Shown: positions 16,151 through 39,260 of the stretch, in pieces | How the letters are laid out: each line of letters opens with the position of its first letter | How positions within the stretch are numbered: the stretch's first letter is position 1 | Source of the DNA: Armatimonadota bacterium | Lineage (GTDB): Bacteria; Armatimonadota; UBA5829 | Assembly: GCA_026392045.1 (NCBI GenBank) | Contig: JAPLCU010000008.1 | Location: forward strand, 3,867 to 67,866 | DNA: 64,000 bases | Direction: 5' to 3' | Made by a program: the position numbers and the translations under genes | The notes under the pieces: model-generated | Seen by the model: the letters and a program-made list of their open reading frames with translations, nothing else | Told to the model about the DNA's origin: nothing | Database searches by the model: none

Positions 16151-16200
16151 AAAAATGGGCGGCAGACGTAAAGGCTTCTGCCGCCCATTTATTTTTATTT
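16151..16200. terminator. Bidirectional intrinsic terminator between convergent genes
   Basis: AAATGGGCGGCAG-ACGTAAAGGCTT-CTGCCGCCCATTT, flanked by an A-run on the left and TTATTTTTATTT on the right. Confidence 0.7.
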
Positions 16201-22426: not shown

Positions 22427-22517
22427 GATAGTGATTGCTTGATTGCAATATATTTTGGCTAAAAAGTGGGCGATAGAAACCGCGGGAGCCAAACCACAAA
22501 AAAGGAAGGTAGAAAAG

Positions 22518-23468
22518 ATGAATAAAACACTGCTATGCACGGCAGCCATCGCGCTGCTGAGCTTGGGCGGAATCGCTCAGGCGAACATCACCATCGAAAC
22601 TGTTGCTATAGGCAACGCAGGCAACGCGGCGGACCCCTATACTGGTTCCCTCTACGGCTCAGTGGGCTACAACTACAACATAGGCAAGTATGAAGTCACC
22701 GCGGGGCAGTATACGGCGTTTCTTAACGCCAAGGCAAATGTATCCGACGCCTACGGACTCTACAACGCCGACATGTGGAACAGTTCGTACGGCTGCAAAA
22801 TTCAGCAAACCAGCGTTACAGGCGGCTACAGCTACGCTGTGGATAGCGCCTTTGCCAACAGACCAGTAAACTGCGTAAGCTTCTGGGATGCCTGCCGTTT
22901 CACTAACTGGCTTGGTAACGGCCAGGGTAATAATTCTACCGAGACAGGCGCATACACTCTAAACAACTACAACGGGCCTCTTGGCGGCAATATCCAGCGC
23001 AACTCCGGATGGACTTATGCAGTGACAAGTGAAGATGAGTGGTATAAGGCTGCTTATTACAAAAATGGCGGTTATTCCCTGTATGCTAATGGCACAAGCG
23101 TTGCGCCGGGTGTGGAGACCGATTCTAACTACGGTGGAATAGGTGGCATATATTCAACTACCTGGGACGGAACAATCCATGGCGCTTTGGAGCAGAATGG
23201 CACTAAAGACATGATGGGCAACGTTTTTGAGTGGAACGAGGCTATTCCTTACCAGAACGCAAATTACGCTTCTCGCGGCCTGCGGGGCGGTTCGTTCCTC
23301 TACAATAGCTACTACCTCCAGTCGTCCTCCCGCGACATCTACGGCTACCCGTACGACGAGATCAACTATCTCGGGTTCCGAGTGTCTGAAGTTCCCGAGC
23401 CGTCCTCAATTATAGCTTTGCTTGGCGGTTTGGCAGGACTTATCGGGATAAGACGGCGTAAGGCATAG
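22518..23468 (+). CDS. FGE-sulfatase (SUMF1/C-type-lectin fold)-like protein with PEP-CTERM sorting signal
   Basis: Signal peptide. GKYEVTAGQYTAFLN, RPVNCVSFWDACRFTNW, GNVFEWNE, RGGSF and GFRV are present. C-terminus is VPEPSSIIALLGGLAGLIGIRRRKA. Confidence 0.8.
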   Translation: MNKTLLCTAAIALLSLGGIAQANITIETVAIGNAGNAADPYTGSLYGSVGYNYNIGKYEVTAGQYTAFLNAKANVSDAYGLYNADMWNSSYGCKIQQTSVTGGYSYAVDSAFANRPVNCVSFWDACRFTNWLGNGQGNNSTETGAYTLNNYNGPLGGNIQRNSGWTYAVTSEDEWYKAAYYKNGGYSLYANGTSVAPGVETDSNYGGIGGIYSTTWDGTIHGALEQNGTKDMMGNVFEWNEAIPYQNANYASRGLRGGSFLYNSYYLQSSSRDIYGYPYDEINYLGFRVSEVPEPSSIIALLGGLAGLIGIRRRKA

Positions 23469-23515: not shown

Positions 23516-24538
23516 ATGTTAAAAACAATTATGGCGGCGGTTGCCGCCCTGTTCGCGCTCGTAGTTCCTGCACAAGCTGCCGAATATACCACAAGAGCGA
23601 TTGTGACCCCTGAATACAGCGATGGCGCCACTGCTATAAATTCCATTGGACAAGTAATTTACAATTCCGAAGGAACGAACAGCGGCGCTACTCTCTGGTC
23701 AAATGGAACATCAATTCGAATCCCTTTAACAGGTAGCTGGAAGACTGCGAATGACATCAATAATTCAGGTCAAATTGTTGGGCAGCAGGGATACAAAGCA
23801 TTTTCATACCAAAACGGCACAGTTACTCAGTTGTCTTGCCCGTATTATCAGTCTCTAGCTTGGGGCATAAACGCAACAGGGCTTATAACAGGATATGCAA
23901 ATACCGGTTATGGACAGGAAATTCCATGTATCTGGGAGAGCGGGGTGTTTAAGCCACTTAACTTACTTACGGCAAAAAGCGGTATCGGCTACGATGTGGA
24001 CGATTCAAACAAAGTGGTGGGCAAGCTTATCTACGCTAATGGCAACGAAAGTGCCGTGGTTTGGGAAAATAACGTCGCAACCTTGCTCTCGGTTCCCGTC
24101 GAAGTTACACGTTCACAGGCTGTTGCCATAAATAAAAATGGGACCATCTGTGGCTCTGCGTCATGGAACTCTAAAACTCATGCTGTCATTTGGAGAAACG
24201 GGGTAATGATAGACCTTGGCATCTTTGCGGGAAATCTTTCGAGCTCTTACGATATCAATGATTTCGACCAAGTAGTTGGATGCTCTACTGATGCCTCTGG
24301 ATATCAAATGCCGTTTATCTGGGACAATGGTGTCCTGAAGAAACTCCCTGTTCTTGCCGGACTCCATCATGGAGAGGCACAAGGTATAAACAATAGTGGT
24401 CAGATAGTCGGTTATTGTGCATTACAAAATGGACGTAGCACAGCGGTTCTTTGGGAAGCAGTCCCCGAACCCTCCTCAATTATCGCTTTGCTTGGCGCTT
24501 TGGCAGGACTTATCGAGCTAAGACGGCGTAAGGCATAG
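23516..24538 (+). CDS. HAF-type extracellular repeat protein with PEP-CTERM sorting signal
   Basis: Seven IN(N/K)xGQ(I/V)VG-like repeats. C-terminus is VPEPSSIIALLGALAGLIELRRRKA. Confidence 0.75.
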   Translation: MLKTIMAAVAALFALVVPAQAAEYTTRAIVTPEYSDGATAINSIGQVIYNSEGTNSGATLWSNGTSIRIPLTGSWKTANDINNSGQIVGQQGYKAFSYQNGTVTQLSCPYYQSLAWGINATGLITGYANTGYGQEIPCIWESGVFKPLNLLTAKSGIGYDVDDSNKVVGKLIYANGNESAVVWENNVATLLSVPVEVTRSQAVAINKNGTICGSASWNSKTHAVIWRNGVMIDLGIFAGNLSSSYDINDFDQVVGCSTDASGYQMPFIWDNGVLKKLPVLAGLHHGEAQGINNSGQIVGYCALQNGRSTAVLWEAVPEPSSIIALLGALAGLIELRRRKA

Positions 24539-26071: not shown

Positions 26072-29000
26072 ATGCGTTCAATGAAACGGAATCTGATGGG
26101 CCCGCTGTGGCTTGCTGCGGGCGTGTGGCTTTTTGTTGTGCCGGCAATTGCGAAAGAACCGGCAGATTTTAAGGACAAGCAATTTTTTGACAACGAAACT
26201 GCCTGGAAAAGTAACGATCCCAAGTTTAATTTTCGGCGGACAGAGCACTTCAGGCTTACCTGGGGTAAAGGCGTCGGCGAGGGTGATGTCAATAACGATT
26301 ATGGCATGATGACTGAAGCGCATGTGCGAGGGATGATGCAGGCGTTGGAGCAGATATGGCATGTGTATCATGATGCTGAGCCAGCAGGACTCGGATATCA
26401 TTTCCCTGGTCTTTCCGGCAACTCAAATAATAAAGACGATAAGCGCTATCGCACAGGTTTTGTTTTCTGTAACACAGGAATATGGGCAGGCGGAGCGTCG
26501 GGTGGTTTGGACGATGCTGGCTATCAGCTTTTTTCCATCAATCCCGGATACACAGAATTTGACCCGGCCACAGGCGCGACCGCGCACGAGTACGGTCATA
26601 CCGCCCAGTCCATAGCAGGCGGCTTAAATAACACCCCTTATGATGGAATGTGGCACGAAGTCGGCGCGAATTGGCTGGACACGCAGTTTTTGGATAATTC
26701 CAGCATCGGCCCGATGGCACATGCGCATTTCCTTTCACTTCCTCACGGCAGAGATTATTACCACTGCTTCCAGATTTGGGAGTATTTCAGAGAACAGCCG
26801 AAATATGGCGCCAAGTTCTTCGACACCATCTGGTCGCAGACCAATGGCAACAAAGACAAGGGTGGCGAGTATATACTTGATGCGATGGTTCGTTTAGACC
26901 CATCGGGCTCACCTGACCCCTATAACCAGGTAAAGGACAACCTCGGCCATGTTGGCGAGCATACTCTGACTTGGGACTTCGAGCGCGGCGTCTTTTGGCG
27001 CGAGCAGGCCCCTCTCACCAGCGATCCCATGGTGGAGAATTACAGGCGCGGCATGTCTGAGCTTATCAGGCGGATGGGCAGCAAAGAATGGTTCAGAGCG
27101 CCGTTCGATCAAGCTCCCAGCCAGGGCGGTTGTGATTGGGTTCCGATCAAGCTGGATGGCAAGACCGAAGGCGGATATGTTGTTAACGTCAACTTCAAGC
27201 CCGCATGGGATGCCACTCGCGGCTCGGATTGGCGCGCCTGTTTTGTGGCCGTCAACGATAGCGGCGAGCCGCGATATTCCAATCAATGGAACTGCGGCGT
27301 GAACTCCATCACCCTTTCGGAGGATGAAAACAAGCTGTATCTGGTTGTGACAGCGGTGCCGGATTTCATAGGTTTCGAGGGTTTCTCTCGGCCATTGATC
27401 TCCGAGGAGATTCTCTTCCCGCAGGCGTATGAGATCGCGTTTGTAGACACTAAAGCGACCGCTTATGAGAGCACATCAGCAGCTAAGCCCGATGGCATTA
27501 CCGGCAAAGCTCATAGCAACGGCGGCGGATTTGTTGCCGATACTGCGAAGGTGGATGCTAGCGCGTATGTCGCCTCGGGCGCGAGGGTTCTCGGCAATGC
27601 TCAGGTTCTGGACAACGCGAGGATCGAAGACTATGCCGTGGTCACGGGAGACGCGATAGTTAAGGATAACGCAGTGATTTCAGGCCATGCGCTGGTTAAA
27701 GACAAGGCGCAGGTTTATGGCAGCGGCAAGGTGCGCGACTGGGCAACTGTGTTGGGTTCTTACAAAGTCTTCGATAACGGCAGAGCGCTTGAGCATGCGT
27801 ATCTTTGCGATAAGGGGCAGCTTCACGAGAATGCCACAATCAAGGGTTCAACTCAAGATTTCGGCAATTGTGATGTCAAAGGCTATGCGATCAAAGATGG
27901 CGACTGCTCCAACGGCGCAAACCTGGATAAATCGGTGCTCATGTGCTGGGTTTGGGGCACCGATCAGGAATACGCAAATGGCAGACCAGACACAGGCGGG
28001 CTATATTGCGGCTACGATTTCGAGAAAACCAGCCCCAACTATGCGCTGGATAAGTTTGGAACTACGCAGGGCTATTTGATGAGCGAGAAACCGATATACT
28101 CTATAACCGAAGACAAATATCTTAACCAAGTCCTGGTTCTCAACGGTAAAGACAAGTATGTTGAGCTAAGAAAAGACATGTTTGACTTCAAAGATATGAC
28201 TATCGCCGCGTGGATTTACCGAGAGGGCGGCGCTGCTAATCAGAAGATTTTTGCGTTTGGCTCGGGCATGGGCAGGCAGATGAGCCTGACAACCAAAGAT
28301 TCATCCGGCAAAGTGAGATTTACCATCAGCGACGGCAAGAATCAACAAGCGTTGGTCAGCGAATCTGATTTTCCGGCCACAACGTGGACGCATGTCGCGG
28401 TAACTCTCAAGGGCGGCAATGGAACACTTTACATAGATGGAAAGCCTGTCGCTACCAGCCCGATCACTATTACTCCTGACGCTCTCCTTGGCCCAAACAC
28501 ACTCGACAGCGGCGACTATGCTTATATTGGACGAGATGCCAAAGGCGGATATTTCCTGGGCTGTTTAGATGACTTTAGAATATATGGTTTCGCGCAGACT
28601 GATGCCGCAATCGCATCGATTGCAGAGCAGGTCAAGATTAGAAAGCCTGCTATCAGCAGCAGCATCCCAACCACCACCATGACGATATCATTCGAAGAGA
28701 AGTCTAAATTCCTCGTGAAGCCAACTGCAATCAGTGATACGGCTGTCACTATGTCTGCCGTCAGAATAAAAGGCGAATCTCATCCTGTGCAGTATTTCTT
28801 TAAGTGCACTTCAGGCAGCGGACACGACAGCGGCTGGATATCAGGAAGCAAATATACGGATTGCGGCCTCAGACCGGGCGCTTCTTATACATACACTGTG
28901 AAGGCAAAACGAGGGGGATATGAGCTTCCAGTATCTGCGGTTATGACCGTCACCACCCCAGACGACAGAGAACCTCCAAAATTTGCCAAAAGCGCATGGG

Positions 29001-29824
29001 AATCTGAGCCGAAAGGCATCAGCGATTCAGCGATCAAGATGGTTGCGGCAAAGGCTGATGATATCAATGCGCTGGTGGAATATAAGTTCACAAGTTCAGA
29101 TAAAAAGACCAGTGGCTGGAAATCCACCCGAACATGGATAGACACCGGCCTCAAGGCGAACCAAAGGTATGAGTATACCGTTCAGGTGAGAGACGGCAGA
29201 GGAAATACCGGCAAGGTTTCAAAGGCTGTTTCTGCGGCAGCAAGAGATAACACTCCGCCCGCAAGGTTCATTAAGGGTGAGTGGCTCACTCGTCCTTATG
29301 CTATGATCGATAACAAAATCGCCCTCAGAGCGAGGCCGGTGCATGCCGATAAGGGCGTCAGCATTGAAGAAAACGAGGTGGAATATTCATTCAAGTGCAT
29401 CAAAGGCGGCGGACCGGACAGCGGCTGGATCGATAAATCTAGTTGGGAGACAACGGTATTGCCGGATGGCGAATACACCTATCAGTTCAGAATGAGGGAC
29501 AAATCACCTCAAAAGAATATGACTGGTCCTTCAAGCGTGATGAGCGTGAAAGTCTCGAACCAGACTGGGTATCACGCTTACAAAGTCAGTGAACTTGCCG
29601 GCTTAGATGAGGGCGCGCTCGCTACTTTCGAGGGTAATGTCAAAGACGCAGCAGCAGACTATTACACCATCGAAGCAGAAGGCGCGAGCATCAACGTTGT
29701 GCCCAAAACCAAAGGCAGCGCGACCGATGCTTCACTAAAAAACACCAATGTGATCATCAGCGGCTGCCTCTGGAAATGCGGCGATGAAATGCGCATTACC
29801 TGGGCTGATGTGAAGCAAAAATAG
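26072..29824 (+). CDS. Secreted 1250-aa multidomain protein: N-terminal HExxH domain, hexapeptide beta-helix, LamG, 3x FN3-like, C-terminal OB-like module
   Basis: Signal peptide. AHEYGHTAQ (HExxH, nt 26584-26598). About 14 hexapeptide repeats (NAQVLD NARIED YAVVTG DAIVKD ...). LamG hallmarks WTHVAVTLKGGNGTLYIDGK and LDDFRIYGF. Three ~85-aa repeats with the YxF.C.SGxGxDSGW pattern. Confidence 0.85.
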   Translation: MRSMKRNLMGPLWLAAGVWLFVVPAIAKEPADFKDKQFFDNETAWKSNDPKFNFRRTEHFRLTWGKGVGEGDVNNDYGMMTEAHVRGMMQALEQIWHVYHDAEPAGLGYHFPGLSGNSNNKDDKRYRTGFVFCNTGIWAGGASGGLDDAGYQLFSINPGYTEFDPATGATAHEYGHTAQSIAGGLNNTPYDGMWHEVGANWLDTQFLDNSSIGPMAHAHFLSLPHGRDYYHCFQIWEYFREQPKYGAKFFDTIWSQTNGNKDKGGEYILDAMVRLDPSGSPDPYNQVKDNLGHVGEHTLTWDFERGVFWREQAPLTSDPMVENYRRGMSELIRRMGSKEWFRAPFDQAPSQGGCDWVPIKLDGKTEGGYVVNVNFKPAWDATRGSDWRACFVAVNDSGEPRYSNQWNCGVNSITLSEDENKLYLVVTAVPDFIGFEGFSRPLISEEILFPQAYEIAFVDTKATAYESTSAAKPDGITGKAHSNGGGFVADTAKVDASAYVASGARVLGNAQVLDNARIEDYAVVTGDAIVKDNAVISGHALVKDKAQVYGSGKVRDWATVLGSYKVFDNGRALEHAYLCDKGQLHENATIKGSTQDFGNCDVKGYAIKDGDCSNGANLDKSVLMCWVWGTDQEYANGRPDTGGLYCGYDFEKTSPNYALDKFGTTQGYLMSEKPIYSITEDKYLNQVLVLNGKDKYVELRKDMFDFKDMTIAAWIYREGGAANQKIFAFGSGMGRQMSLTTKDSSGKVRFTISDGKNQQALVSESDFPATTWTHVAVTLKGGNGTLYIDGKPVATSPITITPDALLGPNTLDSGDYAYIGRDAKGGYFLGCLDDFRIYGFAQTDAAIASIAEQVKIRKPAISSSIPTTTMTISFEEKSKFLVKPTAISDTAVTMSAVRIKGESHPVQYFFKCTSGSGHDSGWISGSKYTDCGLRPGASYTYTVKAKRGGYELPVSAVMTVTTPDDREPPKFAKSAWESEPKGISDSAIKMVAAKADDINALVEYKFTSSDKKTSGWKSTRTWIDTGLKANQRYEYTVQVRDGRGNTGKVSKAVSAAARDNTPPARFIKGEWLTRPYAMIDNKIALRARPVHADKGVSIEENEVEYSFKCIKGGGPDSGWIDKSSWETTVLPDGEYTYQFRMRDKSPQKNMTGPSSVMSVKVSNQTGYHAYKVSELAGLDEGALATFEGNVKDAAADYYTIEAEGASINVVPKTKGSATDASLKNTNVIISGCLWKCGDEMRITWADVKQK

Positions 29825-29836
29825 AGCGTACAGTTC

Positions 29837-29869
29837 GATGCTTCGGCAGAAAAAGCCTGCCGAAGCATC
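29837..29869. repeat. Hairpin (family C-like) GATGCTTCGGCAG-AAAAAGC-CTGCCGAAGCATC between convergent giant genes
   Basis: Perfect 13-bp stem with no flanking T-tract on either strand. It is a possible bidirectional transcription stop. Confidence 0.6.
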
Positions 29870-29924
29870 AAAACCGCTGTTCCCGAAGCATAGCCGGGGT
29901 AAAATTGCGGTGTACCCTTTCGAA

Positions 29925-32900
29925 CTACTGAACAGTTATTGTCTGAGCATAAACCTCATTGTTAGCGCCGTTCTTGATGAGCCAACCGGTTATTACCCCA
30001 TATTTGTTTGCGGCGAACCCGGAAGGAAGCTGCGTGCCATTCGCAAAGACAGTCAATTGGGTTGAGTAGCCATCGCTGATCGTGAATGACAAATTATCTC
30101 CGGCGATAGTTATAACCTTACCCCAAACTTTGACGGCCCTTCCTTGAGCCTTGTTATAAGTTACAGCAGATTTGTTGTTCATACCCGTAAGTTTGGCGAA
30201 CTTGACGGAGATTGTGTGAGGCGCAGTTACATTGGTAAACGTATAACTGCTTGCCGGCATGCAAGAAATGCCATCAACAATAATATCCGATACGGCGTAA
30301 GAGGCGTTTGGCGTGAATGTGAATGTCTGATTTGCCCCATGGTTCACTAACACGGCTCCGCTGGGGCTGATAGCACCTCCGGTTTGCGCCGATGCAGTAA
30401 TCGTATATTTAATCTGATTAAACGCAGCCGAAATCGTATGATTAGCAATCACATTGCTAAATGTATAGGTGCTGACTGCGCCTTTGGATACACCATCGGC
30501 CACCACATTCGCGATGGTATAGCCTGTGTTTGGCGTTATGGTGTATGTTTGATTGGTTTTGTAGCTGACCTGCGTCACCCCGCTCGGGCTGATTGTGCCT
30601 CCCGTTGGGGTAGCAGCAGTTATGAAGTAGCTCATGAACTTGTTGTAAAGGTCGGTTTCCAATTGCAGCCGTTCGGGGTCGGTCAGCGTCACCTTATAGA
30701 CAAAAATGTCACCGATATTGCCGTTGAAAGTTGGCCATGAGTCCGGGTTGTTGCGTCCCACGTTGATATGATTGGCATAAGCGCCGGCAACACTCGGAAC
30801 CAGTCCGGGGCCGGTTGCGGACATGTCACTGGTGGATGTCCTACTCATGACCTCAGTGCCGTTAGCATAGACTTTGTATTTGCCATCTGTCTGCACAACC
30901 AGGCTGAGGATTGTGATCTGACCATCAGGAATAGCCGTCGAGCCCACGTCCAAGCTGCCGTTGCGCCGCACATTGACGTAGCCAGTGTTGTTCTGCAAAC
31001 CCAAAACAAGGCGATCGTAAAAAATGTCTACGACGGATCGCCAGTTGCCCGAGTCTGCGCTGCGAGTAGGTTTTACAGCTACAACAATGGTCGCGCCATT
31101 GATAGGGATTGCTGCCGAATAGGTTCCGAGGTCAAAACCATCGTAATCGGCATAAAGATTCTTCTCCCACTTAATGCCATTGATTATATCAACCGTTGGA
31201 GTGTTCATCTTTGTGAGCGTACCGCCCGCTGGGAGATAGGTTGCCCAGGTTGCAATGGTTCCGCTCGCAGGCAATATATCGGTTACACACGAGAACAGCA
31301 AATCCGCCGTCCTGGGAATATTTCTGGTGTTAGAAGCCAGCGTAAGGTCGATTCCAGTTACGTCCACACCTGTAACGACAGCAGTTTTATCCGCCGACGG
31401 ATAGTAGGCAGCGCCCGATGCGCACACATACCATGTTCCGATTGGAACCGGCTGGTTGTAGTTGCCCAAGGCATCCGTAGTTGCGGTGAATAACGGGCTT
31501 GAAAATGCATTCGGTGAGGTAGAGAAATAGACGGATGCCCCCGAGATGGCTGTACCGTCGCTTCGCTTGGTAACCTTACCGGATATTTTCGCACTGCTTT
31601 CCAGCGTAAAGTTGACATTGGAGATATTGGCTCCGTTGACGGCTCTTATCAGGTCTGCAGAAGTGTTATATGCGCCAGCTCCAGCGCAGATATACCATGT
31701 TGATGGGTTTGGCAACGCCTTGCTATAGTTTCCAGATGCGTCTGTTGTTGCGGTTACAATATAGTTTACCGAGGCATTTGCAGCATCGGAGAAGTAAACT
31801 GTAGCGCCCGAAATACCCACGCCGCTGGAGTTTGTGACTTTGCCAGAGATAGTATATGTGGCCGGGTTGCTTAGGAATGTGAGGGTGGCGGTTGTGACCA
31901 GCCTCGCCCCGCTCAAGGTGAACATATGGCCTTTAATGGTGTAATTCTTAAGCACATAGGTGGGTTCGGTCGCTGCGTGAGGCTTGACCTTAATCCAGTT
32001 GCCGCTGAGGAGGTCTTTGACGATATAGTTGTCGGTATTAACTCGCATTATCGTGCCGCTGAAAGTGACGAGATACTCATCAGGAACGGTTACAAGCGAA
32101 TTTAGAGCGTAGCTGTGGTAGCCGGTAGTTGGGCCTACGACCGCTGTCTGAATGCTGGAATAGGGCGTCTCGTTCCACTGAGCAGATTTGTCTCTGATCT
32201 TGAACTGATAGCTGTAAGCGCCGTCTGCCACAGCAGACGGTGATGTCCATAAGCTCGTGCTGACCCAGCCGCTGTCCGGTCCGCCGCCGCTTGTGCAATG
32301 GAAGTAATACTCCACTGTTTCGTTTGCGATGTTGCATGAAAGAATGTGACCACCGGTTATTGAGCGCGCTCTCATGGCTACTTTATTGTCTATGGTAGCC
32401 CAGGGCATTGAGCACCATTCGCCGTATGTATAACGGACGGGCGGAGTGTCATCCCTGGCTGGCGCGGACGATACAGCGGACACCGTGCCAGTGTTGCTAT
32501 AGGCATCTCTCATTTGAACGGTATAGCTGTAAGTTGTTCCAGAGGTCAGAGAGGTGTCTGTCCATGTGGGGTTAGTCTGCCAGCCGCTGCTGGCAAGTAT
32601 TGTTCCGCCAGGCAGGAGGACTCTGTTGAAATTATACTCTACCAAGGGACTTTCATCGACGCCCATTGTAGCTGTCATTGCGATGGCGGTCGTGCTGATG
32701 CCCTTAGGCGGCAGCAGGAATGTTGCCACGCTGGGTGTGGGAGCGGTTGTATCAGCGGGTAAAGTCACGCTCAAAGCCGATGATGCGGTTGTCGTGTTGC
32801 CTGCCTTATCCCGCATTTTGACCGTATATGCGTAGGTTGTGCCCGGAGTGAGGGCGCTGTCGAAGTATTTGTTGGATGAAGTCCAGCCGCTATCGTGCCC

Positions 32901-35615
32901 GCCGCCAGATGTGCAGGTGAAATAGTATTGAATGTAGTTGCTTGCATCCGCACCCTTGGTTGCAGACATTGTAACTGAGGTTGCGTTATTTACTTTTGGC
33001 GCAACCAGCCAGGTTGCGGCGTTTGGCGTAGGCGCGGTGGTGTCGGTAGTGGTTGTGACAGTCCCACCAGCAAGCGTTTGAAGCGCAGTTATTTCGGTAG
33101 TTGTCAGAGCTTTGCAGTAGATTCTGAAATCATCTATCTGACCGGTGAAATAGTTGCCCGCGTTGCCTTTGCATAAAAAGTTTAGATTGCCTGCGCCTGA
33201 TATGTTCGCGCCATTGCAGTCATCCGGGTTTAGGGTCATGCTTGCATTGGCGGCGACCTGCACGCCGTTTACATACATTGTTCCGGTGTCGCCCGACAGC
33301 GTTACCGTCACATGCTTCCAAGTGTTTGCTGGTAAAGCCGCAGCGGTAAGAGTCTGCTCACCCGCCACGCCTGTAGTTGTAATGGCAAACTTCAGATTGC
33401 CGCCAGCATCGGATGGCGTGAGCGTTACATATTTGTTTGCGCCATCGCCGAATGAGAATACCTTCTCGTCTGCTGCGCCGTTCCATTTGATCCAAAGCGC
33501 GAAAGAGCAATCGTCAAAGTCTGAAACGCCGTTCATCAGTTCAATGTACTGGCTTGTTCCGTTAAGAAACAAAACGCTGCCGCGGTTTGTGGCTCCGCCG
33601 TTCACGATACTTGGGCTGCCTATGAGATACCCGTAGGTGATGCCGTATTCATCCAACGCATAGTTGGGGCTGGTTTTGTCAAAGTCATACCCGCAGTAGA
33701 GATAGGCATTATCCGTGAGTGCGTTCGCACGGTCCTGGTTGGCGCCCCAGACCCAGCCCATGAGAACCCCATGGTCCATATCGGCATAATTTGAGCAGTC
33801 GGCATCTTTGATCGCGCAGCCGCTGACATTCGGATAGTCTCCAGATGCCGGGTTGAACTCCCACGTGCAGCCTTTGATGACCGCATCCCCATGAATCAGC
33901 GTGTCATCGGATATATATCCGTGCTCAATCACGCGGCCATTTTCGTAGACTTTGGATCTGCTGTTAACCATAGCCCAGTCTCGAACCTTTGCATAGCCGT
34001 AGACCTGCGCGCTGTCTCTTACAATGGCGTGTCCGCTGACGATAGCATTGTCTCTAACCTGAGCCGTTGAATAAACAACCGCATAGTCTTCAATCCTAGC
34101 ATTGCCAAGGACCTTTGCTGTGTCGTAGACAGCAGCATTAGGACCCACATAAGCAGTCGCGTCAACGGTCGCTGTGTTGGCTTTGAATCCGCCGCCGTTG
34201 GCATGATGTGTGTGGGCAACATTTGGCAGGTTCGGTATAATCAGGTAAGGTGTTGCGGCTGTATTCACGAAAGCAACTCGATATGCCTGCGGTGCAGTCG
34301 GCGCATCGGTCATAAGAGGGCCGTTGAAGCCGTTAAACGCCTGAAAATCAGGAGTCGCCGAAACAACCAGGTAAAGTATGTTTTCATCAGCAGACAAAGT
34401 GATTGTGTTGATGCCGCTGTTCCACATATTGCTGTAGCGGGCTTCTCCACCAGTGTTGACGGCCACAAAACAAGCGCGCCAGTCGGATTTTCTGACCGAA
34501 TCCCAGAGCGGCTGGAAATCAATACTCACCGAGTAGCCGCCCGTTGTTTTGCCGGTAAGCGCAATCGGACAAATATCGTAACCGCCCTGGCAAGGCGCAT
34601 GCTGGAAAGGCGTTCTGTACCAACCCGGATTTCCAGGCTGCGCTACAAGTTCAGAAGTGCCTCGTCTGAGGCGGTCATTAGACGGGCTACCATCGAGCGT
34701 ATATCCCGTAGTCAGGCGATAGTATTGCTTGCCTTGATAATCCCAGGTGACATTGCGCGCGGCCATCATTCCCAGCAGGTCTTTGATTGAATTGGTCGGG
34801 TCAGGCTCACCGGCAGGATGCAGCCTTACAATCGCGTCAAACATGTATTCCCCCGAGCTGCCGTTTGCTTGAGTCCAGAGTTTGGTGATGAAATCGGTTC
34901 CATAGCGCGGGTCTTCATACAGAATCTCGTCCCACAGCCAGGCATCATAGTAGGCGCGGCCGTTTGGAAGTGTGAAGTTATGTTGTATAGCATAGCCGCC
35001 CATTCCGGCATACCAATAAGATGGCACACCCAGCCAGTCTATAGTGCATTCGTGCCACATGCCGTCCCACGGCGTATTATTGAAACCGGCTGCGTTTATG
35101 ACCACGGTATGCAAATATTCGTGAAAGCTGGCATCTGGTTGGGGATCATAGTGCAGACCGGCAGGGTTTACGGCAAACCATGGGAAACCGTAGTCATCCA
35201 AGGTCCCCCAGCCACCGCCCGCATAGATGCCTGTGTTGTTAAGAGTGAGGTTAGTGCGATAAAATCTACCATCACGATAGGTCGCATTTATAGACTCGTT
35301 CGCCTGGCGGAAACCTACACCTCCCGGAGGAGCATCGAATGTGGCGTGCCACTCGTGCTCAAAGGCTTGCAAGTTACCCTGTATCAGCGCCTCGGTCACC
35401 GAGTTATACTCGGAACTTGTATCCGGGTTTTGCCCATTGCCCCATACAAACCGGAAATGCTCTGATCTGCGCACATTCAGGGTAGGATCGGTGTTGGACC
35501 AGATGTATTCGTTATCATAGAAAACTTGGGCGCTAGCTGATCCGCAAATAACCAATAGAAATAGGGCGAACATCGCCCGCGCCAGATTCGAAATGCCAAG
35601 CCTGTTTGCTACCAT
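29925..35615 (-). CDS. Secreted 1896-aa paralogue: HExxH domain, hexapeptide beta-helix, LamG, 3x FN3-like, 2x CarboxypepD_reg-like, second LamG, 2x InlB-B-repeat-like, OB-like module
   Basis: The N-terminal ~1150 aa are colinear with 26072-29824. Examples: RRSEHFRFVWGNG vs RRTEHFRLTWGKG; FHEYLHT (nt 35109-35123); ARIEDYAVV in both; IDDFRIYCKAL. Extra modules include ISGKVTNSSGVGISGATVYF. Confidence 0.85.
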   Translation of the reverse strand: MVANRLGISNLARAMFALFLLVICGSASAQVFYDNEYIWSNTDPTLNVRRSEHFRFVWGNGQNPDTSSEYNSVTEALIQGNLQAFEHEWHATFDAPPGGVGFRQANESINATYRDGRFYRTNLTLNNTGIYAGGGWGTLDDYGFPWFAVNPAGLHYDPQPDASFHEYLHTVVINAAGFNNTPWDGMWHECTIDWLGVPSYWYAGMGGYAIQHNFTLPNGRAYYDAWLWDEILYEDPRYGTDFITKLWTQANGSSGEYMFDAIVRLHPAGEPDPTNSIKDLLGMMAARNVTWDYQGKQYYRLTTGYTLDGSPSNDRLRRGTSELVAQPGNPGWYRTPFQHAPCQGGYDICPIALTGKTTGGYSVSIDFQPLWDSVRKSDWRACFVAVNTGGEARYSNMWNSGINTITLSADENILYLVVSATPDFQAFNGFNGPLMTDAPTAPQAYRVAFVNTAATPYLIIPNLPNVAHTHHANGGGFKANTATVDATAYVGPNAAVYDTAKVLGNARIEDYAVVYSTAQVRDNAIVSGHAIVRDSAQVYGYAKVRDWAMVNSRSKVYENGRVIEHGYISDDTLIHGDAVIKGCTWEFNPASGDYPNVSGCAIKDADCSNYADMDHGVLMGWVWGANQDRANALTDNAYLYCGYDFDKTSPNYALDEYGITYGYLIGSPSIVNGGATNRGSVLFLNGTSQYIELMNGVSDFDDCSFALWIKWNGAADEKVFSFGDGANKYVTLTPSDAGGNLKFAITTTGVAGEQTLTAAALPANTWKHVTVTLSGDTGTMYVNGVQVAANASMTLNPDDCNGANISGAGNLNFLCKGNAGNYFTGQIDDFRIYCKALTTTEITALQTLAGGTVTTTTDTTAPTPNAATWLVAPKVNNATSVTMSATKGADASNYIQYYFTCTSGGGHDSGWTSSNKYFDSALTPGTTYAYTVKMRDKAGNTTTASSALSVTLPADTTAPTPSVATFLLPPKGISTTAIAMTATMGVDESPLVEYNFNRVLLPGGTILASSGWQTNPTWTDTSLTSGTTYSYTVQMRDAYSNTGTVSAVSSAPARDDTPPVRYTYGEWCSMPWATIDNKVAMRARSITGGHILSCNIANETVEYYFHCTSGGGPDSGWVSTSLWTSPSAVADGAYSYQFKIRDKSAQWNETPYSSIQTAVVGPTTGYHSYALNSLVTVPDEYLVTFSGTIMRVNTDNYIVKDLLSGNWIKVKPHAATEPTYVLKNYTIKGHMFTLSGARLVTTATLTFLSNPATYTISGKVTNSSGVGISGATVYFSDAANASVNYIVTATTDASGNYSKALPNPSTWYICAGAGAYNTSADLIRAVNGANISNVNFTLESSAKISGKVTKRSDGTAISGASVYFSTSPNAFSSPLFTATTDALGNYNQPVPIGTWYVCASGAAYYPSADKTAVVTGVDVTGIDLTLASNTRNIPRTADLLFSCVTDILPASGTIATWATYLPAGGTLTKMNTPTVDIINGIKWEKNLYADYDGFDLGTYSAAIPINGATIVVAVKPTRSADSGNWRSVVDIFYDRLVLGLQNNTGYVNVRRNGSLDVGSTAIPDGQITILSLVVQTDGKYKVYANGTEVMSRTSTSDMSATGPGLVPSVAGAYANHINVGRNNPDSWPTFNGNIGDIFVYKVTLTDPERLQLETDLYNKFMSYFITAATPTGGTISPSGVTQVSYKTNQTYTITPNTGYTIANVVADGVSKGAVSTYTFSNVIANHTISAAFNQIKYTITASAQTGGAISPSGAVLVNHGANQTFTFTPNASYAVSDIIVDGISCMPASSYTFTNVTAPHTISVKFAKLTGMNNKSAVTYNKAQGRAVKVWGKVITIAGDNLSFTISDGYSTQLTVFANGTQLPSGFAANKYGVITGWLIKNGANNEVYAQTITVQ

Positions 35616-35734
35616 TTGTAATCCCTCTTCTCACGCGCATTTTAGCGCTACTTGGAATATACCATGTAAATGAGAGTTTGGCAATTGCACTTTTGCTGTT
35701 GTTATGTGCAGTATTATGTACTTCAGCTCCAGTT

Positions 35735-35814
35735 GCTTCGGTATCCTGATGCCGAAGCCGTCCAGTTGCATCATTATCCTGATTCCAGTTGCTTTGGTGT
35801 CCTGATGCCGAAGC
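35735..35814. repeat. Two copies of hairpin family C (GCTTYGGTRTCCTGATGCCGAAGC) in a ~55-bp direct repeat
   Basis: The copies at 35735-35758 and 35791-35814 are each embedded in CCAGTTGCTT..GCCGAAGCCGTC. A third copy lies at 7936-7959. Located 3' of the Type IIG gene. Confidence 0.85.
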
Positions 35815-35842
35815 CGTCGCCGCAGTCGACGAGACCCCACGT

Positions 35843-38800
35843 CTATACAATCGGAAACCCGCCATGCCCCAATATCGACTCATCAATCAGCCCCATAAGC
35901 CGAATCGTATCGCCAAGCGCGGCTGCTGTGCGTCTGTAGTGCTCAAGGTCATCGTGGCCGAGGGTGCGGCCTTTGCGGTCTTTGAGCCACTTCTGGCACA
36001 CCTGATACCCGCCGATGTGGAACTCCCACACTTCCGGCGGCACCCCATCAAAAAACTGCGCCTTGTTTATCCACACGCGCCCTCCGGCTCCCTCTCCTGG
36101 GGGAGAGGGTTGGGGTGAGGGCGCAACCTCTGGCTCATACCGCACTTCCTCCACAATATCCGAGCCGCTTTCAGGGTACCCGGGCAGGTTTGCGCCTGTT
36201 GCGTCCATCAGATGCAGCGAAACCAGCTCATCGCCCAGCGCGCAAAGCTCGCGGAAGAGGTCTGCGCTGCTTGTCAACGGCAGACGCGGGAAGTCTATTT
36301 TCAAAAACTCGGCGTATCGCTTGCGGTAGGTTGGCGAGTGGAAGACGGCGTACATATACGCGAAAATGTCCTCCGGGCCGAAAGTGGACACGCGGTCGCC
36401 CTTGCCGTCCGAAACAAAGTCCAAACCAAGCTTTTCAGAGAATTCTTTTATAAACTCAGGCGCAAGGTTCGGGCGGCGTCCGCCAGGGGCGTCTGTGGGT
36501 TTCTCCGTGTCGAATTGGATTGATGGGTAGAGGTAGAGGGGTGCTATACTCATAATGCCCTTGTTGCTGTAAAACGCGCGGTTGTCTACCAAAACCGACG
36601 TAGCCAGGAAATGTGTGTAACACTCACTAAGTGCCACTTGCCGCATAAAGACCAGTCCAATGTTGCGACCAAAAAACATATGTCGCATGACATCTTGGCG
36701 ATTCCGCGTTACGACTGACTTATCATATGTGATGCATCTAGTATCAAATGGGCGGTACAGAATATCCTTAATCACCGAACGCGGCAACCTGTGGTTATTA
36801 GCCAGAACGGTAGCTTCTTCAGCGGAGAACGCTATTGTTCTGGCGTCCTGACCGGTGACTACTCCCACATTATTAACTGGCAAAGCATGAGTAAGATTCC
36901 AGTATTCTTCATACTCCACTCTAAGTGTGTCATCTCGCGGCACAAAGAAATAATACGGCTTCGACGGGCTTATCTCTGTCCATTGCGTATCAGCAACAGC
37001 CTTCTCCGAAAGCCACTTATACTTACCAGCTCTATCACCCCAAAGCTCCGCATGCCGCACTTTGCACTGATCTGGCGAGCCTTCATCTCGCTTTACGAAG
37101 ATTCCTATAGCAACGCCCTGCTGAATATCAAAAACATTCTTATCAGGCGAGCCGTCCGGCGCTTTTTCTTTCTTCTTGCTATTGCCGTGCAAATCGAGCA
37201 GCCAGATATCATCAAATGTATCCATCAGACTCTTGCGCATCCCCCTGAATGTGGGGTTGTCCAAATAACCGTGATTGGTGATGAATGCCAACACGCCATG
37301 ACCGGTGCGTTCTATGCGCCACTGGGCGAATCGAATGAACTTCACATAGTCATCCTGCAGCCATTTTGGGTTTTTTTCGCCCAGCGGTTTGCCATCTACA
37401 TAGTAATAATCTTGTATCAGCTTGCCGATGAATGTGGCTGTTTTCTTTTTGTTTTCATTTATGTACCAACTTCGATTCACTGAATGGCCTGAATACGGCG
37501 GATTTCCGAGCACCACCATCACGGGAGCGTCCATCTTTACTCGGCTTGCCTCGTTTGCTTCTTCAACCACCCACTGAGCAAAGAGATTTACCCCCGCGAA
37601 CTTCTCGGCTTCCTCCAGCGTGTTAGTAAGATAAACCCCAAGCCGCTCCTCACCTGCAAAATCATAACCGGATTGCGCAAGCTGCAGGCCGAGCTTCATA
37701 TGCGTAACTGCATAAGGGGCCATCAGCAGCTCAAAACCAAACACTCTCGGCAGCAAATGCTCATGCACATAGCTTGACCACATCCCCTGCTTGCCCATGA
37801 ATGACTCGTGAATCAGATCCACCACGCCATGCAGAAACGTGCCGGTGCCTGTAGCGGGGTCCAATATCTGCACCTTATGGACCTGCTTCTCGCCATCTTT
37901 GGTTTTCACGGTAACTTTGCTGGAATCCGCAAGGCCATCGCTCAAGCCAAAATCTTTTTTGAGAATATGGTCCACACTGCGCACTATATAAGAGACAACA
38001 GGCTCCGGCGTATAGTAAACGCCGCGAGTTTCGCGCAATTTCGGGTCATAAGCAGCCAAAAAGGTCTCATAAAAGTGCACAACCGGGTCTTCCAGCCGCG
38101 TTCGCTTGCCGAAACCCGTGAGAATAGCTTCCATATCTGCATGCGCAAGCAGGTTCGCCACATCATCGACCGCCCATGCGATTCGATCATCCAGGCTATA
38201 ACCCGCTATTTCCTGAAACATCTTGCGCAGAAACGGGTTTGTCTTAGGCAGATCATAGGCAGCGTGTTCGCGAGTGAAGTTTGCTCCATCTTTCGTATTG
38301 CACCGCGCGGCGAAGAGGCCATAGCAGATGGTTTGCGCATACATATCGGCAAATTGTTCTTCTTTGAGGTCATGAAGAAGGGTCTTGCGGAAGCCGTCCA
38401 TTTGGTCATGCAGCGATCCGGTTTTGTCTTCATCAGTAAGGGCCTTGGTAGTGACATCGCGAATCAGGCGCGCAAGATGAGCCATGCGCTGTGCCAGTTC
38501 CTTGGGGCTGCCAACCGTAGGCGTCTGAGTCACCAGAAACTCGCTTAAAAGCTCGCGAACTTTCTCAATGCCCTCTTTGTCTTCTTTAAGCTTGCCATGC
38601 GAATCCACCCTGCCAAGACGAGCCGTCAGCCGATGCTCCCCGCCGACATACCAGCGAAACTCCAGATAATCGGTAAGAATCAAATTGCCGAGGCTTTCAC
38701 GGTAGCGGCGCAGTTGGTCGGTTTTCTCGACCTTGTCCAGAATCTCATCCACATTCTTCGTCTCAATATAACCGATAGGCACGCGCCTGGCGGTAATGAC

Positions 38801-39207: not shown

Positions 39208-39260
39208 ACAAGTAGAGGGGCTGCTTGCCTTTTATAATTTCATTCATAGAGGAGAAAAAA

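What the first reader, a model, noticed from the sequence alone, without database searches (positions are those of the whole stretch)
26072..35615. Convergent pair of giant paralogues with a shared ~450-aa HExxH domain, hexapeptide beta-helix, LamG and triple FN3-like architecture
Seen: the 1250-aa and 1896-aa proteins are colinear over ~1150 aa. The shared parts are as follows: signal peptide; a conserved block RR(T/S)EHFR(L/F)xWG; HExxH (AHEYGHT / FHEYLHT); a WHE motif about 22 residues later (GMWHEVGANWLD / GMWHECTIDWLG); about 14 perfect hexapeptide repeats (ARIEDYAVV...); LamG; and three ~85-aa repeats with (Y/F)xCxxGGGxDSGW. The genes abut tail-to-tail, separated by 100 nt containing a perfect 13-bp-stem hairpin. 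The longer copy adds CarboxypepD_reg-like modules, a second LamG and InlB-B-repeat-like modules. Established: HExxH is the zinc-metallopeptidase signature, and hexapeptide repeats form left-handed beta-helices that are more usual in acyltransferases. Inference: a secreted putative metalloprotease-adhesin family with an unusual domain combination. The N-terminal domain may correspond to an uncharacterised DUF, possibly DUF6055-like, which needs checking.
Basis: partly seen in the sequence, partly recalled or inferred. Interest (0 to 1): 0.65.

Follow-up and report, generated by a model that had tools for sequence, protein, structure and literature searches.

The report
Two giant Svx-like secreted zinc glycopeptidases
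The two tail-to-tail giant genes encode secreted zinc proteases related to the plant-pathogen enzyme Svx, which cuts sugar-coated plant cell-wall proteins; here the protease carries extra sugar-binding and spacer domains in an uncultivated freshwater-sediment bacterium.

Summary
Two convergent ORFs (1250 and 1896 aa) are 44% identical over ~1250 aa, 100 nt apart, with a perfect 13-bp hairpin between them.

The "unusual" HExxH + hexapeptide beta-helix combination is not new. It is the defining two-domain module of the Svx/AvrXca family (Pfam DUF6055 plus a left-handed beta-helix). Svx was shown in 2022-2026 to be a gluzincin that cleaves arabinosylated plant extensins, with the beta-helix acting as a glycan-recognition domain. 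A and B are distant relatives (24% identity to a true Svx) and fall below the family's curated cut-off. They are extended by LamG, three FN3 domains and a C-terminal beta domain; B also adds 2 CarboxypepD_reg, a second LamG and 2 InlB-B repeats.

HExxH-x19-E is invariant in 61 aligned homologues. The AF2 model is confident (pLDDT 91) and best matches M60 O-glycopeptidases.

New here: orthologues of A in three other phyla, and a true Svx gene in Novosphingobium, sit beside GH127 beta-L-arabinofuranosidase, DUF5695 and alpha-L-arabinofuranosidase genes. This supports a role in degrading hydroxyproline-rich glycoproteins. The convergent pairing is not conserved, and A and B are old paralogues. 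Verdict: a new variant of a known kind, of moderate interest.

The parts
26072..29824 (+). Gene A, 1250 aa: signal peptide, DUF6055 gluzincin domain, beta-sandwich, left-handed beta-helix, LamG, 3 FN3, C-terminal beta domain
   Evidence: ORF; Pfam/NCBIfam; AF2 models with pLDDT 91.4 and 91.5
26072..26152 (+). A signal peptide (aa 1-27, MRSMKRNLMGPLWLAAGVWLFVVPAIA|KE)
   Evidence: Read from the sequence: basic n-region, hydrophobic core, AIA motif. Not tested with a predictor.
26156..27364 (+). A DUF6055 domain (aa 29-431): alpha/beta gluzincin catalytic subdomain followed by a beta-sandwich
   Evidence: PF19527, 112.7 bits against a cut-off of 27. Foldseek top hits are the M60 O-glycopeptidases ZmpC and ZmpB.
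26585..26659 (+). A zinc site: H172-E173-Y-G-H176 ... E196 (HExxH-x19-E), followed by N200
   Evidence: Invariant columns H145/E146/H149/E169 of alignment A1, which are +27 in protein numbering. The motif is present in every homologue with an intact N-terminus. It aligns to HELTH...E...N of a true Svx.
27509..27886 (+). A left-handed beta-helix (aa ~480-605), 14 uninterrupted hexapeptides
   Evidence: strands every 6 residues in the AF2 model; PDB hits YdcK, LpxD and gamma-carbonic anhydrase; covered by the Svx profile up to position 592 of 601
28142..28615 (+). A LamG / concanavalin-A-like domain (aa 691-848)
   Evidence: Laminin_G_3, E 3.7e-29. The best single-domain fold hit is 5hon, AbnA arabinanase domain 4 (TM 0.83). 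The family profile hits 5hon at E 4e-9 and 4qvs at E 1e-34.
28673..29563 (+). A three tandem FN3 domains (aa ~868-1164)
   Evidence: AF2; Foldseek hits to FN3 tandems at E 1e-12 to 1e-10; Pfam fn3 26.7 bits
29564..29821 (+). A C-terminal ~85-aa all-beta domain of unknown family
   Evidence: Confident strands in the AF2 model (residues 527-611); no Pfam match; conserved in A-type orthologues
29837..29869 (.). Perfect 13-bp-stem hairpin with a 7-nt loop in the 100-nt gap; probably a shared bidirectional terminator or 3'-end stabiliser
   Evidence: z = -5.15. There is no U-tract on either strand, and the consensus terminator scan does not call it. The arms are unique in the window.
29925..35615 (-). 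Gene B, 1896 aa: same architecture as A over aa 1-1245, plus a 650-aa extension
34260..35474 (-). B DUF6055 domain (aa 48-452), with HEYLH at 35109-35123 and E189 at 35049-35051
   Evidence: PF19527, 90 bits; motifs
33846..34208 (-). B left-handed beta-helix (aa ~470-590), 17 uninterrupted hexapeptides
   Evidence: NCBIfam Svx profile to position 564
33090..33563 (-). B LamG domain 1 (aa 685-842)
   Evidence: Laminin_G_3, E 3.7e-28
31881..33038 (-). B three FN3 domains plus a beta domain equivalent to A's C-terminal domain (aa ~860-1245)
   Evidence: Colinear alignment with A; weak Big_13, Ig and fn3 hits
29928..31853 (-). B-specific extension: 2 CarboxypepD_reg (aa 1255-~1430), a LamG/sialidase-N-like lectin domain (~1470-1660), 2 Flg_new_2 InlB-B repeats (~1663-1809), and a terminal ~80-aa beta domain
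   Evidence: The extension is 40-58% identical to that of the long Verrucomicrobial class.
35656..35684 (-). Candidate sigma-70-type promoter for B (TTGCCA-17-TATATT with an extended TG)
   Evidence: Consensus scan only; promoter-like hits are not enriched over shuffles

Best explanation
A and B are Sec-exported, multidomain zinc endopeptidases of the DUF6055 / Svx-like gluzincin superfamily. They most likely act as glycan-guided (O-glyco)peptidases.

Mechanism. H172, H176 and E196 (A numbering) bind zinc, and E173 is the catalytic base. This assignment is inferred from invariance and from mutagenesis of the equivalent Svx residues. The acidic peptidase domain, the beta-sandwich and the left-handed beta-helix pack into one rigid unit. 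In Svx the cleft between these domains positions a rod-like, arabinosylated, basic glycoprotein, and the beta-helix binds its oligo-arabinoside side chains. That role was shown for Svx and is inferred here. The added LamG domain is related to an arabinan-binding module and probably gives further glycan affinity. The FN3 domains probably act as spacers holding the enzyme away from the cell.

Substrate. For the A clade the most likely substrates are hydroxyproline-rich glycoproteins (extensin-type, from plant or green-algal detritus in the sediment), processed together with beta-L- and alpha-L-arabinofuranosidases. B is an old paralogue with the same catalytic module but a different accessory set, and presumably a related but different glycoprotein target.

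Gene arrangement. The tail-to-tail arrangement has no functional meaning beyond a shared terminator hairpin.
For: Homology to Svx:
- The NCBIfam Svx/AvrXca profile covers A 57-620 (profile 44-592 of 601, E 4e-37) and B 119-582 (E 1e-33).
- A true Svx (Novosphingobium, 835 bits against a cut-off of 625) aligns colinearly with A 56-610 at E 3e-21. The alignment includes HExxH-x19-E-xxx-N, the SDWR block, the NGGG motif and ARIED(Y/H)AVV.

Catalytic residues: they are invariant in 61 homologues, and the motif is present in every homologue with an intact N-terminus.

Structure: the AF2 model has pLDDT 91.4 and pTM 0.91, with HExxH and Glu on consecutive helices. Its top PDB folds are the M60 O-glycopeptidases ZmpC and ZmpB, the same closest fold reported for Svx (PMC9266454).

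Svx biochemistry: EDTA-sensitive, zinc-restored activity; E141A and E167A mutants are impaired (PMC9266454). Svx cleaves extensin, and this requires the beta-helix domain (PMC13164431).

Charge: the N-modules of A and B are acidic (pI ~5, net charge about -25), like the electronegative Svx cleft (PMC10815107).

LamG: related to the arabinan-binding domain 4 of AbnA (TM 0.83; profile E 4e-9).

Synteny:
- 6 of 8 A-type orthologue loci with flanks on both sides carry GH127 beta-L-arabinofuranosidase within 8-10 kb, in Armatimonadota, Abditibacteriaceae, Verrucomicrobiota and Planctomycetia. Several also carry DUF5695 and alpha-L-arabinofuranosidase. In L011 and L013 the order is A-type, DUF5695, GH127 on one strand with gaps of 13-31 nt.
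- The true Svx gene of Novosphingobium is flanked by DUF5695, a DPP-IV-type prolyl peptidase, GH127, GH43, a TonB-dependent receptor and a sugar transporter.
- GH127 enzymes remove Hyp-linked beta-L-arabinofuranose from extensins (PMC6085000, PMC7263609).

Distribution: more distant homologues occur in plant-fibre degraders, with dockerins or beside xylanases and GH43 (Pseudobacteroides, Ruminococcus flavefaciens, Clostridium felsineum).
Against: - No enzyme of this clade has been assayed; everything functional is transferred from proteins that are only ~24% identical.
- A and B score far below the Svx equivalog cut-off (128 and 117 bits against 625).
- The aromatic and Gly residues of the Svx/M60 sugar subsite (W136, G137) are not conserved: A has G168/A169 and B has D/A. 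Only the N171 equivalent is kept, so the glycan read at the active site may differ.
- The window itself contains no GH127, alpha-arabinofuranosidase or DUF5695 gene.
- No glycosidase synteny was seen for the B clade or the long class.
- The Foldseek match to M60 is weak (E 2e-4, TM 0.21-0.25), and Pfam M60 is not hit.
- Zinc-site geometry in the model could not be inspected.
- LamG-type folds bind many ligands.
Confidence: 0.62

Rival explanations
1. A and B are active Svx-like glycopeptidases, but their substrates are not extensin-type HRGPs. Candidates are arabinogalactan proteins, mucin-like or S-layer glycoproteins of other microbes, or invertebrate or fungal glycoproteins. The accessory domains would tune recognition to that other glycan.
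For: - The W/G sugar-subsite residues of Svx are replaced in A and B.
- B and the long class show no arabinofuranosidase synteny.
- The window lacks GH127 and DUF5695.
- Some A-type neighbourhoods also hold GH2, GH20, GH27+NPCBM, GH78 and GH172, which fits AGP-type or other glycans.
- B carries a sialidase-N-like lectin domain.
- The closest solved folds are mucinases.
Against: - GH127 and DUF5695 co-occur with A-type genes in 6 of 8 loci across phyla, and with a true Svx.
- LamG is related to an arabinan-binding module.
- Svx did not cleave mucin (PMC13164431).
Confidence: 0.25
2. The HExxH domain would be a binding module or a pseudo-peptidase.
For: - Large size, with LamG, FN3, Ig-like CarboxypepD_reg and InlB-B repeats, all typical of surface proteins.
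- No activity data exist for this clade.
- One paper states that MEROPS M106, to which it assigned a fungal DUF6055 protein, holds many non-peptidase homologues (PMC11241649).
Against: - H, E, H and E of the zinc site are invariant across 61 diverse homologues down to ~30% identity, which argues for retained catalysis.
- No cell-anchoring signal is seen at either C-terminus, whereas neighbouring genes do carry PEP-CTERM.
- The module is colinear with an enzyme proven active.
Confidence: 0.07
3. The hexapeptide beta-helix is a working acyl/acetyltransferase or gamma-carbonic-anhydrase-like enzyme, which would make A and B bifunctional.
For: Weak sequence and fold similarity to LpxA, LpxD, DapD, NeuD and gamma-carbonic anhydrase. 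JGI names some homologues 'carbonic anhydrase/acetyltransferase-like'.
Against: - The Pfam Hexapep score is below threshold (22.3 against 27).
- The best match is YdcK, a beta-solenoid of unknown function.
- From established knowledge, hexapeptide transferases form active sites between the subunits of a trimer and use cytoplasmic acyl-CoA or acyl-ACP, which is unavailable to an exported protein.
- In Svx the domain acts in substrate recognition and is dispensable for general proteolysis (PMC13164431).
Confidence: 0.04

Closest known systems
Svx/AvrXca family (NCBIfam NF040510): Svx of Pectobacterium atrosepticum and Dickeya solani, AvrXca of Xanthomonas; here also a true member from Novosphingobium sp. 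RL4
   Same: - Signal peptide, DUF6055 gluzincin domain, beta-sandwich and left-handed beta-helix, colinear over the whole ~600-aa Svx length.
- HExxH...E...N motif. The x19 spacing is identical to the Novosphingobium Svx.
- Acidic N-module.
- M60-like closest fold.
- Genomic association with GH127 and DUF5695, shared between A-type orthologues and the Novosphingobium Svx.
   Different: - Only ~24% identity; 128 and 117 bits against a cut-off of 625.
- Pba Svx has x22 spacing.
- The W136/G137 sugar-site residues are not conserved.
- A and B carry 630 and 1280 extra residues (LamG, 3 FN3, a beta domain; in B also CarboxypepD_reg, LamG and InlB-B repeats).
- The host is an uncultivated freshwater-sediment bacterium (best relatives are Planctomycetota MAGs), not a plant pathogen.
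M60 / enhancin-like O-glycopeptidases (ZmpB and ZmpC of Clostridium perfringens; PDB 5kdn, 6xsz, 7js4)
   Same: Gluzincin HEXXH...E on two helices. They are the best structural matches to the catalytic domain. Both are large secreted enzymes that use appended carbohydrate-binding modules to recognise glycoprotein substrates.
   Different: - No sequence-level membership: no Pfam M60 hit, and the profile match to 7sci has E 0.3.
- Low TM-scores (0.21-0.25).
- M60 enzymes use CBM32 and CBM51 and have no beta-helix.
- Their substrates are mucin-type GalNAc glycans.
HRGP/extensin arabinoside degradation systems (HypAA GH43, HypBA2 GH121, HypBA1 GH127 of Bifidobacterium longum and Xanthomonas euvesicatoria)
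   Same: GH127 and alpha-L-arabinofuranosidase genes lie next to A-type orthologues and next to the Novosphingobium Svx.
   Different: The described systems contain no peptidase. GH121 was not seen in these loci; instead the uncharacterised DUF5695 is the conserved partner. The window itself has none of these genes.
Other DUF6055-LbH-LamG proteins of uncultivated bacteria, annotated only as 'DUF6055 domain-containing protein'
   Same: A has orthologues at 46-61% identity (~1240 aa). B has one at 77% identity in the N-module (P0051, 1806 aa). The architecture is the same.
   Different: None of these has been studied. Pairing of the two paralogues was not seen elsewhere: 1 of 85 loci has a second copy, and that one is in tandem.

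Membership tests
Pfam DUF6055 (PF19527) | HMM score above the gathering threshold (27 bits) | tested here: met
   A scores 112.7 bits (aa 29-431) and B scores 90 bits (aa 48-452)
Svx/AvrXca family (NCBIfam NF040510, equivalog) | Whole-protein score at or above the curated cut-off of 625 bits | tested here: not met
   A scores 128.2 bits and B 116.8 bits. A true member scored 834.9 bits in the same test.
Svx/AvrXca family | Two-domain module: gluzincin peptidase domain followed by a left-handed beta-helix ('acyltransferase-like') domain, colinear | tested here: met
   Profile positions 44-592 of 601 are matched. BLASTP to the Novosphingobium Svx covers A 56-610. The AF2 model shows both domains packed together, pTM 0.91.
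Svx/AvrXca family | Zinc motif HEXXHX(8,28)E with the catalytic Glu and the third-ligand Glu (E141 and E167 in Pba Svx) | tested here: met
   HEYGH-x19-E in A and HEYLH-x19-E in B; invariant in 61 homologues
Svx/AvrXca family | Sugar-subsite residues W136, G137 and N171, reported as more than 80% conserved among Svx homologues (PMC9266454) | tested here: not met
   The N equivalent is present (N200 in A, the 'ANW' motif). The positions aligned to W/G are G168/A169 in A and D/A in B; the Novosphingobium Svx has F/G.
Svx/AvrXca family | EDTA-sensitive peptidase activity; extensin cleavage dependent on the beta-helix domain | not testable with these tools
   This needs recombinant protein. It was shown only for Pba and Dso Svx.
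Peptidase M60 (PF13402) | Pfam HMM match; M60 catalytic fold | tested here: inconclusive
   There is no Pfam M60 hit at E<=0.01, and the family profile matches the M60 chain 7sci at E 0.3. However, Foldseek's top hits are ZmpC and ZmpB (E 2e-4, probability 0.96, TM 0.21-0.25).
Bacterial transferase hexapeptide / LbH acyltransferases (PF00132) | Hexapeptide repeats forming a left-handed beta-helix; trimeric acyl-CoA or acyl-ACP-dependent active site | tested here: inconclusive
   The repeats and LbH fold are present, but the Pfam score is below the cut-off (22.3 against 27). The oligomeric state and active site were not testable.
Laminin_G_3 / LamG (PF13385) | HMM score above the gathering threshold; jelly-roll fold | tested here: met
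   102.3 and 99 bits against a cut-off of 27.6; TM 0.83 to 5hon
Fibronectin type III | Three tandem ~95-aa beta-sandwich domains of FN3 topology | tested here: met
   Foldseek E 1e-13 to 1e-10 to FN3 tandems; Pfam fn3 26.7 bits against a cut-off of 25 when scanned on the subsequence

The most novel reading that the evidence does not exclude
Svx-type peptidase, DUF5695 and GH127 beta-L-arabinofuranosidase (with alpha-L-arabinofuranosidase and, in Novosphingobium, a DPP-IV-type prolyl peptidase, a TonB-dependent receptor and a sugar transporter) together form an unrecognised, ancient and widely distributed module for using hydroxyproline-rich arabinosylated glycoproteins.

Under this reading, the giant A-type proteins of freshwater and soil Planctomycetota, Verrucomicrobiota and Armatimonadota are its extracellular 'extensinase'. 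DUF5695 would be a missing enzyme of the pathway. The plant-pathogen virulence factor Svx would be a stripped-down derivative of a saprophytic toolkit.
Probability: 0.45. Interest if true: 0.6.

Novelty: new variant of a known kind. Interest (0 to 1): 0.42.

Why it matters
Extensins and other hydroxyproline-rich glycoproteins are an abundant and recalcitrant protein fraction of plant and green-algal cell walls. How environmental bacteria break down their peptide backbone is barely known.

The only characterised enzyme with this protease + beta-helix module is Svx, a virulence factor of soft-rot pathogens. Distant, much larger relatives turn out to be common in uncultivated PVC and Armatimonadota bacteria. 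In several phyla they sit beside beta-L-arabinofuranosidases. Both findings give an independent genomic argument for the proposed Svx substrate. They also point to a carbon and nitrogen turnover route in sediments and soils, and nominate DUF5695 and the A/B accessory domains as testable new parts.

For the scan itself, the result explains a DUF and removes the apparent oddity of the domain combination.

Tried and rejected
1. PDB sequence searches with A 1-643 and with the family profile found no solved relative of the peptidase domain; only the beta-helix, LamG and FN3 parts matched.

2. The viral fold library gave only generic beta-helix and beta-sandwich matches and no enhancin.

3. I tried to reach named Svx proteins through the large protein index.
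- Ten ~600-750-aa representatives all scored below the Svx cut-off.
- A bridge search with P0184 returned only unnamed DUF6055-LbH-LamG proteins.
- A true Svx was finally found through a tblastn hit on a Novosphingobium chromid.

4. I tested the idea that the convergent A/B pair is a conserved unit and rejected it.
- The B orthologue P0051 has no A-like neighbour.
- Only 1 of 85 loci has a second copy within the flanks, and that copy is in tandem.
- The NJ tree puts A and B in separate clades, each with its own orthologues.

5. I looked for GH127, alpha-arabinofuranosidase, DUF5695 or GH20 in the window and found none.

6. I considered whether the hairpin is a canonical intrinsic terminator or a repeated element. 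It has no U-tract, is not called by the scan, and its arms are unique in the window.

7. RNA evidence is unavailable: only DNA runs of a freshwater-sediment metagenome hold the sequence.

8. The exact contig of B is not on record in the gene-position index.

9. DUF5695 has no PDB relative and no literature.
Full report
OBSERVATION

They are 44% identical (552 of 1268 columns) and colinear from the signal peptide to A's last residues, which align to B 1-1245.

- RR(T/S)EHFR(L/F)xWG, HEYGH/HEYLH and a WHE motif are present.
- There are 14 uninterrupted hexapeptides in A and 17 in B.
- The LamG domain is confirmed in both proteins.
- B additionally has two CarboxypepD_reg modules, a second LamG-type lectin domain and two Flg_new_2 'divergent InlB B-repeat' units.
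- Three tandem FN3 domains are confirmed by a confident AF2 model of A 640-1250 (pLDDT 91.5) and by Foldseek.
- The Cys-containing GGGxDSGW motif is strict only in the first and third FN3.

The intergenic gap is 100 nt and holds a perfect 13-bp hairpin at 29837-29869 (z = -5.15). The hairpin lacks a U-tract and is not a repeated element.

WHAT THE N-TERMINAL 620 RESIDUES ARE

More informative is the NCBIfam equivalog model for the Svx/AvrXca virulence/avirulence family. It matches A over aa 57-620 (profile 44-592 of 601, E 4e-37) and B over aa 119-582. That span covers the HExxH domain and the hexapeptide beta-helix together.

Svx of Pectobacterium atrosepticum has been characterised in three papers.
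- It is a secreted gluzincin (HEXXHX22E) that EDTA inhibits and zinc restores. E141A and E167A mutants are impaired. Its closest fold is the M60 O-glycopeptidase ZmpB (PMC9266454).
- Its two domains form an electronegative cleft (PMC10815107).
- It cleaves extensins, and the 'acyltransferase-like' beta-helix is dispensable for azocasein hydrolysis but essential for extensin hydrolysis, where it recognises arabinan side chains (PMC13164431).

The domain combination that looked unusual is therefore the signature of a known family.

HOW CLOSE A AND B ARE TO SVX

They are not close. Their scores (128 and 117 bits) are far below the curated cut-off of 625.

To compare residue by residue I located a genuine family member on a Novosphingobium sp. 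RL4 chromid (835 bits). It aligns with A 56-610 at 24% identity (E 3e-21). The alignment is colinear through the EHF block, HExxH-x19-E-xxx-N, the SDWR block of the beta-sandwich, the NGGG motif and ARIED(Y/H)AVV at the start of the beta-helix.

The Asn of the Svx sugar subsite is conserved. The Trp/Gly pair is not: A has G168/A169 and B has D/A. The glycan read next to the scissile bond may therefore differ.

CATALYTIC COMPETENCE

In an alignment of 61 homologues reaching down to ~30% identity, H172, E173, H176 and E196 (A numbering) are invariant. Every homologue with an intact N-terminus has HExxH followed by (W/H)E.

The AF2 model of A 28-660 is confident (pLDDT 91.4, pTM 0.91). It puts HExxH and the Glu on two consecutive helices, followed by a beta-sandwich and a regular left-handed beta-helix. 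Its best PDB matches are the M60 O-glycopeptidases ZmpC and ZmpB, though weakly (E 2e-4, TM 0.21-0.25). The beta-helix matches LpxD, DapD and gamma-carbonic anhydrase.

No solved structure is related to the peptidase domain by sequence. The N-modules are strongly acidic, with pI ~5 and net charge about -25. I could not inspect the coordinates, so zinc-site geometry remains inferred.

THE ACCESSORY DOMAINS

The LamG domain's best single-domain structural match is domain 4 of the Geobacillus GH43 arabinanase AbnA, solved with bound ligand (5hon, TM 0.83). The family profile also finds 5hon by sequence (E 4e-9) and an S-layer-protein LamG domain, 4qvs (E 1e-34). This is a lead towards arabinan binding, not proof.

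The three FN3 domains and the ~85-aa C-terminal beta domain have no assigned function. B's 650-aa extension is 40-58% identical to the extension carried by a large class of ~1800-aa Verrucomicrobial homologues.

FAMILY AND DISTRIBUTION

Two hundred and twenty-nine proteins match A at E<=1e-10. Nearly all come from metagenome-assembled genomes and are named only 'DUF6055 domain-containing protein'. The DUF6055 domain itself is a small family, with 235 clusters at 50% identity among 1.84 billion representatives.

GTDB genomes with relatives are Planctomycetota, Verrucomicrobiota, Armatimonadota/Abditibacteriaceae and Lentisphaerota. More distant relatives occur in the plant-fibre degraders Ruminococcus flavefaciens, Herbivorax and Oscillospiraceae. 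Homologues bearing dockerin domains (Pfam PF00404) occur too, among them one from Pseudobacteroides cellulosolvens (P0101). Clostridium felsineum has a copy beside a cellulose-binding protein, GH43 and xylanase genes.

The best GTDB match to A is 61% identical, so the window's organism is not represented. The sequence comes from a freshwater-sediment metagenome, and neighbouring genes (DUF1598, PEP-CTERM) fit a PVC-type bacterium.

An NJ tree puts A at the base of the ~1240-aa 'A-type' clade. B falls in a separate clade with P0051 (77% identical in the N-module), and the long Verrucomicrobial class lies further out. A and B are therefore old paralogues, not a recent duplication.

Their adjacency is not conserved. 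The B orthologue stands alone, and only 1 of 85 loci has a second copy nearby, in tandem.

GENOMIC CONTEXT (NEW EVIDENCE)

Among 98 ORFs flanking homologues in 29 loci, the most recurrent families after Metallophos (4 ORFs) were GH127 beta-L-arabinofuranosidase, alpha-L-arabinofuranosidase and PA14, each in 3 ORFs; DUF5695 was in 2.

Resolved by locus, the pattern is as follows.
- In two Verrucomicrobiota MAGs (L011, L013) the order is A-type gene, DUF5695, GH127 on one strand with gaps of 13-31 nt.
- In two Abditibacteriaceae MAGs (L014, L015) an alpha-L-arabinofuranosidase precedes the gene and GH127 follows it.
- In a Planctomycetia MAG (L012) GH127 and the arabinofuranosidase flank it.
- In an Armatimonadota MAG (L001) DUF5695, GH27+NPCBM, GH2, an alpha-arabinofuranosidase and GH127 surround it.

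That makes 6 of the 8 A-type loci with flanks on both sides. None of the long-class loci shows this pattern.

The true Svx gene of Novosphingobium lies in a similar cluster. The order is GH43, Ldh_2/DUF885, GH127, a DPP-IV-type prolyl peptidase, a full-length DUF5695 directly upstream of Svx, Svx itself, an unknown ORF, a TonB-dependent receptor and an MFS sugar transporter.

GH127 enzymes (HypBA1, XeHypBA1) remove Hyp-linked beta-L-arabinofuranose from extensins and related HRGPs (PMC7263609, PMC6085000). The Svx papers do not mention this synteny. DUF5695 is unstudied. The window itself has none of these partner genes.

INTERPRETATION

A and B are exported, glycan-guided zinc endopeptidases of the Svx-like superfamily. 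For the A clade, an extensin/HRGP-type substrate from plant or algal detritus is the best-supported target. For B, the substrate is open.

The hairpin most likely ends both transcripts.

The finding is real and well described, but the architecture is a decorated variant of a known enzyme rather than a new kind.

Noticed in passing
L089 (Novosphingobium sp. RL4, NZ_CP141945.1 712000-740000): A true Svx/AvrXca gene sits in what looks like a complete utilisation locus for Hyp-rich arabinosylated glycoproteins. The order is GH43, Ldh_2+DUF885, GH127, DPP-IV/S9 prolyl peptidase, DUF5695, Svx, a 903-aa ORF with no family, a TonB-dependent receptor and an MFS sugar transporter. The record is unannotated in PLSDB, and the Svx papers do not mention this context.
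   Followed up: partly
L011:11663-14458, L013:11682-14459, L001:2157-5039, L089:10529-13285: DUF5695 (~920 aa) is the most consistent immediate partner of Svx-like genes across phyla. It has no PDB sequence relative, no NCBIfam model and no literature. It is a candidate missing enzyme of the pathway.
   Followed up: partly
window 35728-35818: Three ~35-nt direct repeats, each with a GCTTCGG...CCGAAGC hairpin, lie between the 3' end of the Type ISP restriction gene and the start of B. They may be stacked terminators ahead of B's promoter-like site at 35684-35656.
   Followed up: no
window 35843-38989 (-): A 1048-aa single-chain Type ISP restriction-modification enzyme (N6_Mtase plus the Type_ISP_C specificity domain, E 5e-77) lies directly upstream of B.
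   Followed up: no
window 16195-18990 (-): A 931-aa protein with two LamG domains and a calcineurin-like metallophosphoesterase domain. Homologues lie next to DUF6055 giants in other genomes (L030 at 40% identity over most of its length; also L015, L016, L027 and L049). P0022 is a DUF6055 protein fused to a Metallophos domain, and Metallophos was the most frequent neighbour family.
   Followed up: partly
window 39225-43436 (+): A 1403-aa protein in which only a C-terminal LamG is recognisable; the first ~950 aa match no Pfam, NCBIfam or PDB entry. Homologues sit immediately downstream of long-class DUF6055 genes in L040 (45% identity) and L036 (38% identity).
   Followed up: partly
window 22443-23468 (+) and 23516-24538 (+): Two small secreted proteins end in PEP-CTERM-type sorting signals; one has an FGE-sulfatase domain. 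A and B have no such C-terminal signal.
   Followed up: no
A residues H59 and E93 (window 26246-26248 and 26348-26350): Two further invariant residues across 61 homologues lie in the RRxEHFR and LE..W blocks, outside the HExxH...E motif. Their role is unknown; they might form a second metal site or stabilise the structure.
   Followed up: no
L087:10001-15471: P0057 (1188 aa) and the overlapping next gene (635 aa, CarboxypepD_reg) look like one B-type gene split by a frameshift in a long-read assembly.
   Followed up: no
P0262-P0330: A further large clade of ~900-1100-aa DUF6055-LbH-LamG proteins without FN3 domains exists in metagenomes; some carry a 3-keto-disaccharide-hydrolase-like domain. 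Several are auto-named 'carbonic anhydrase/acetyltransferase-like'.
   Followed up: no
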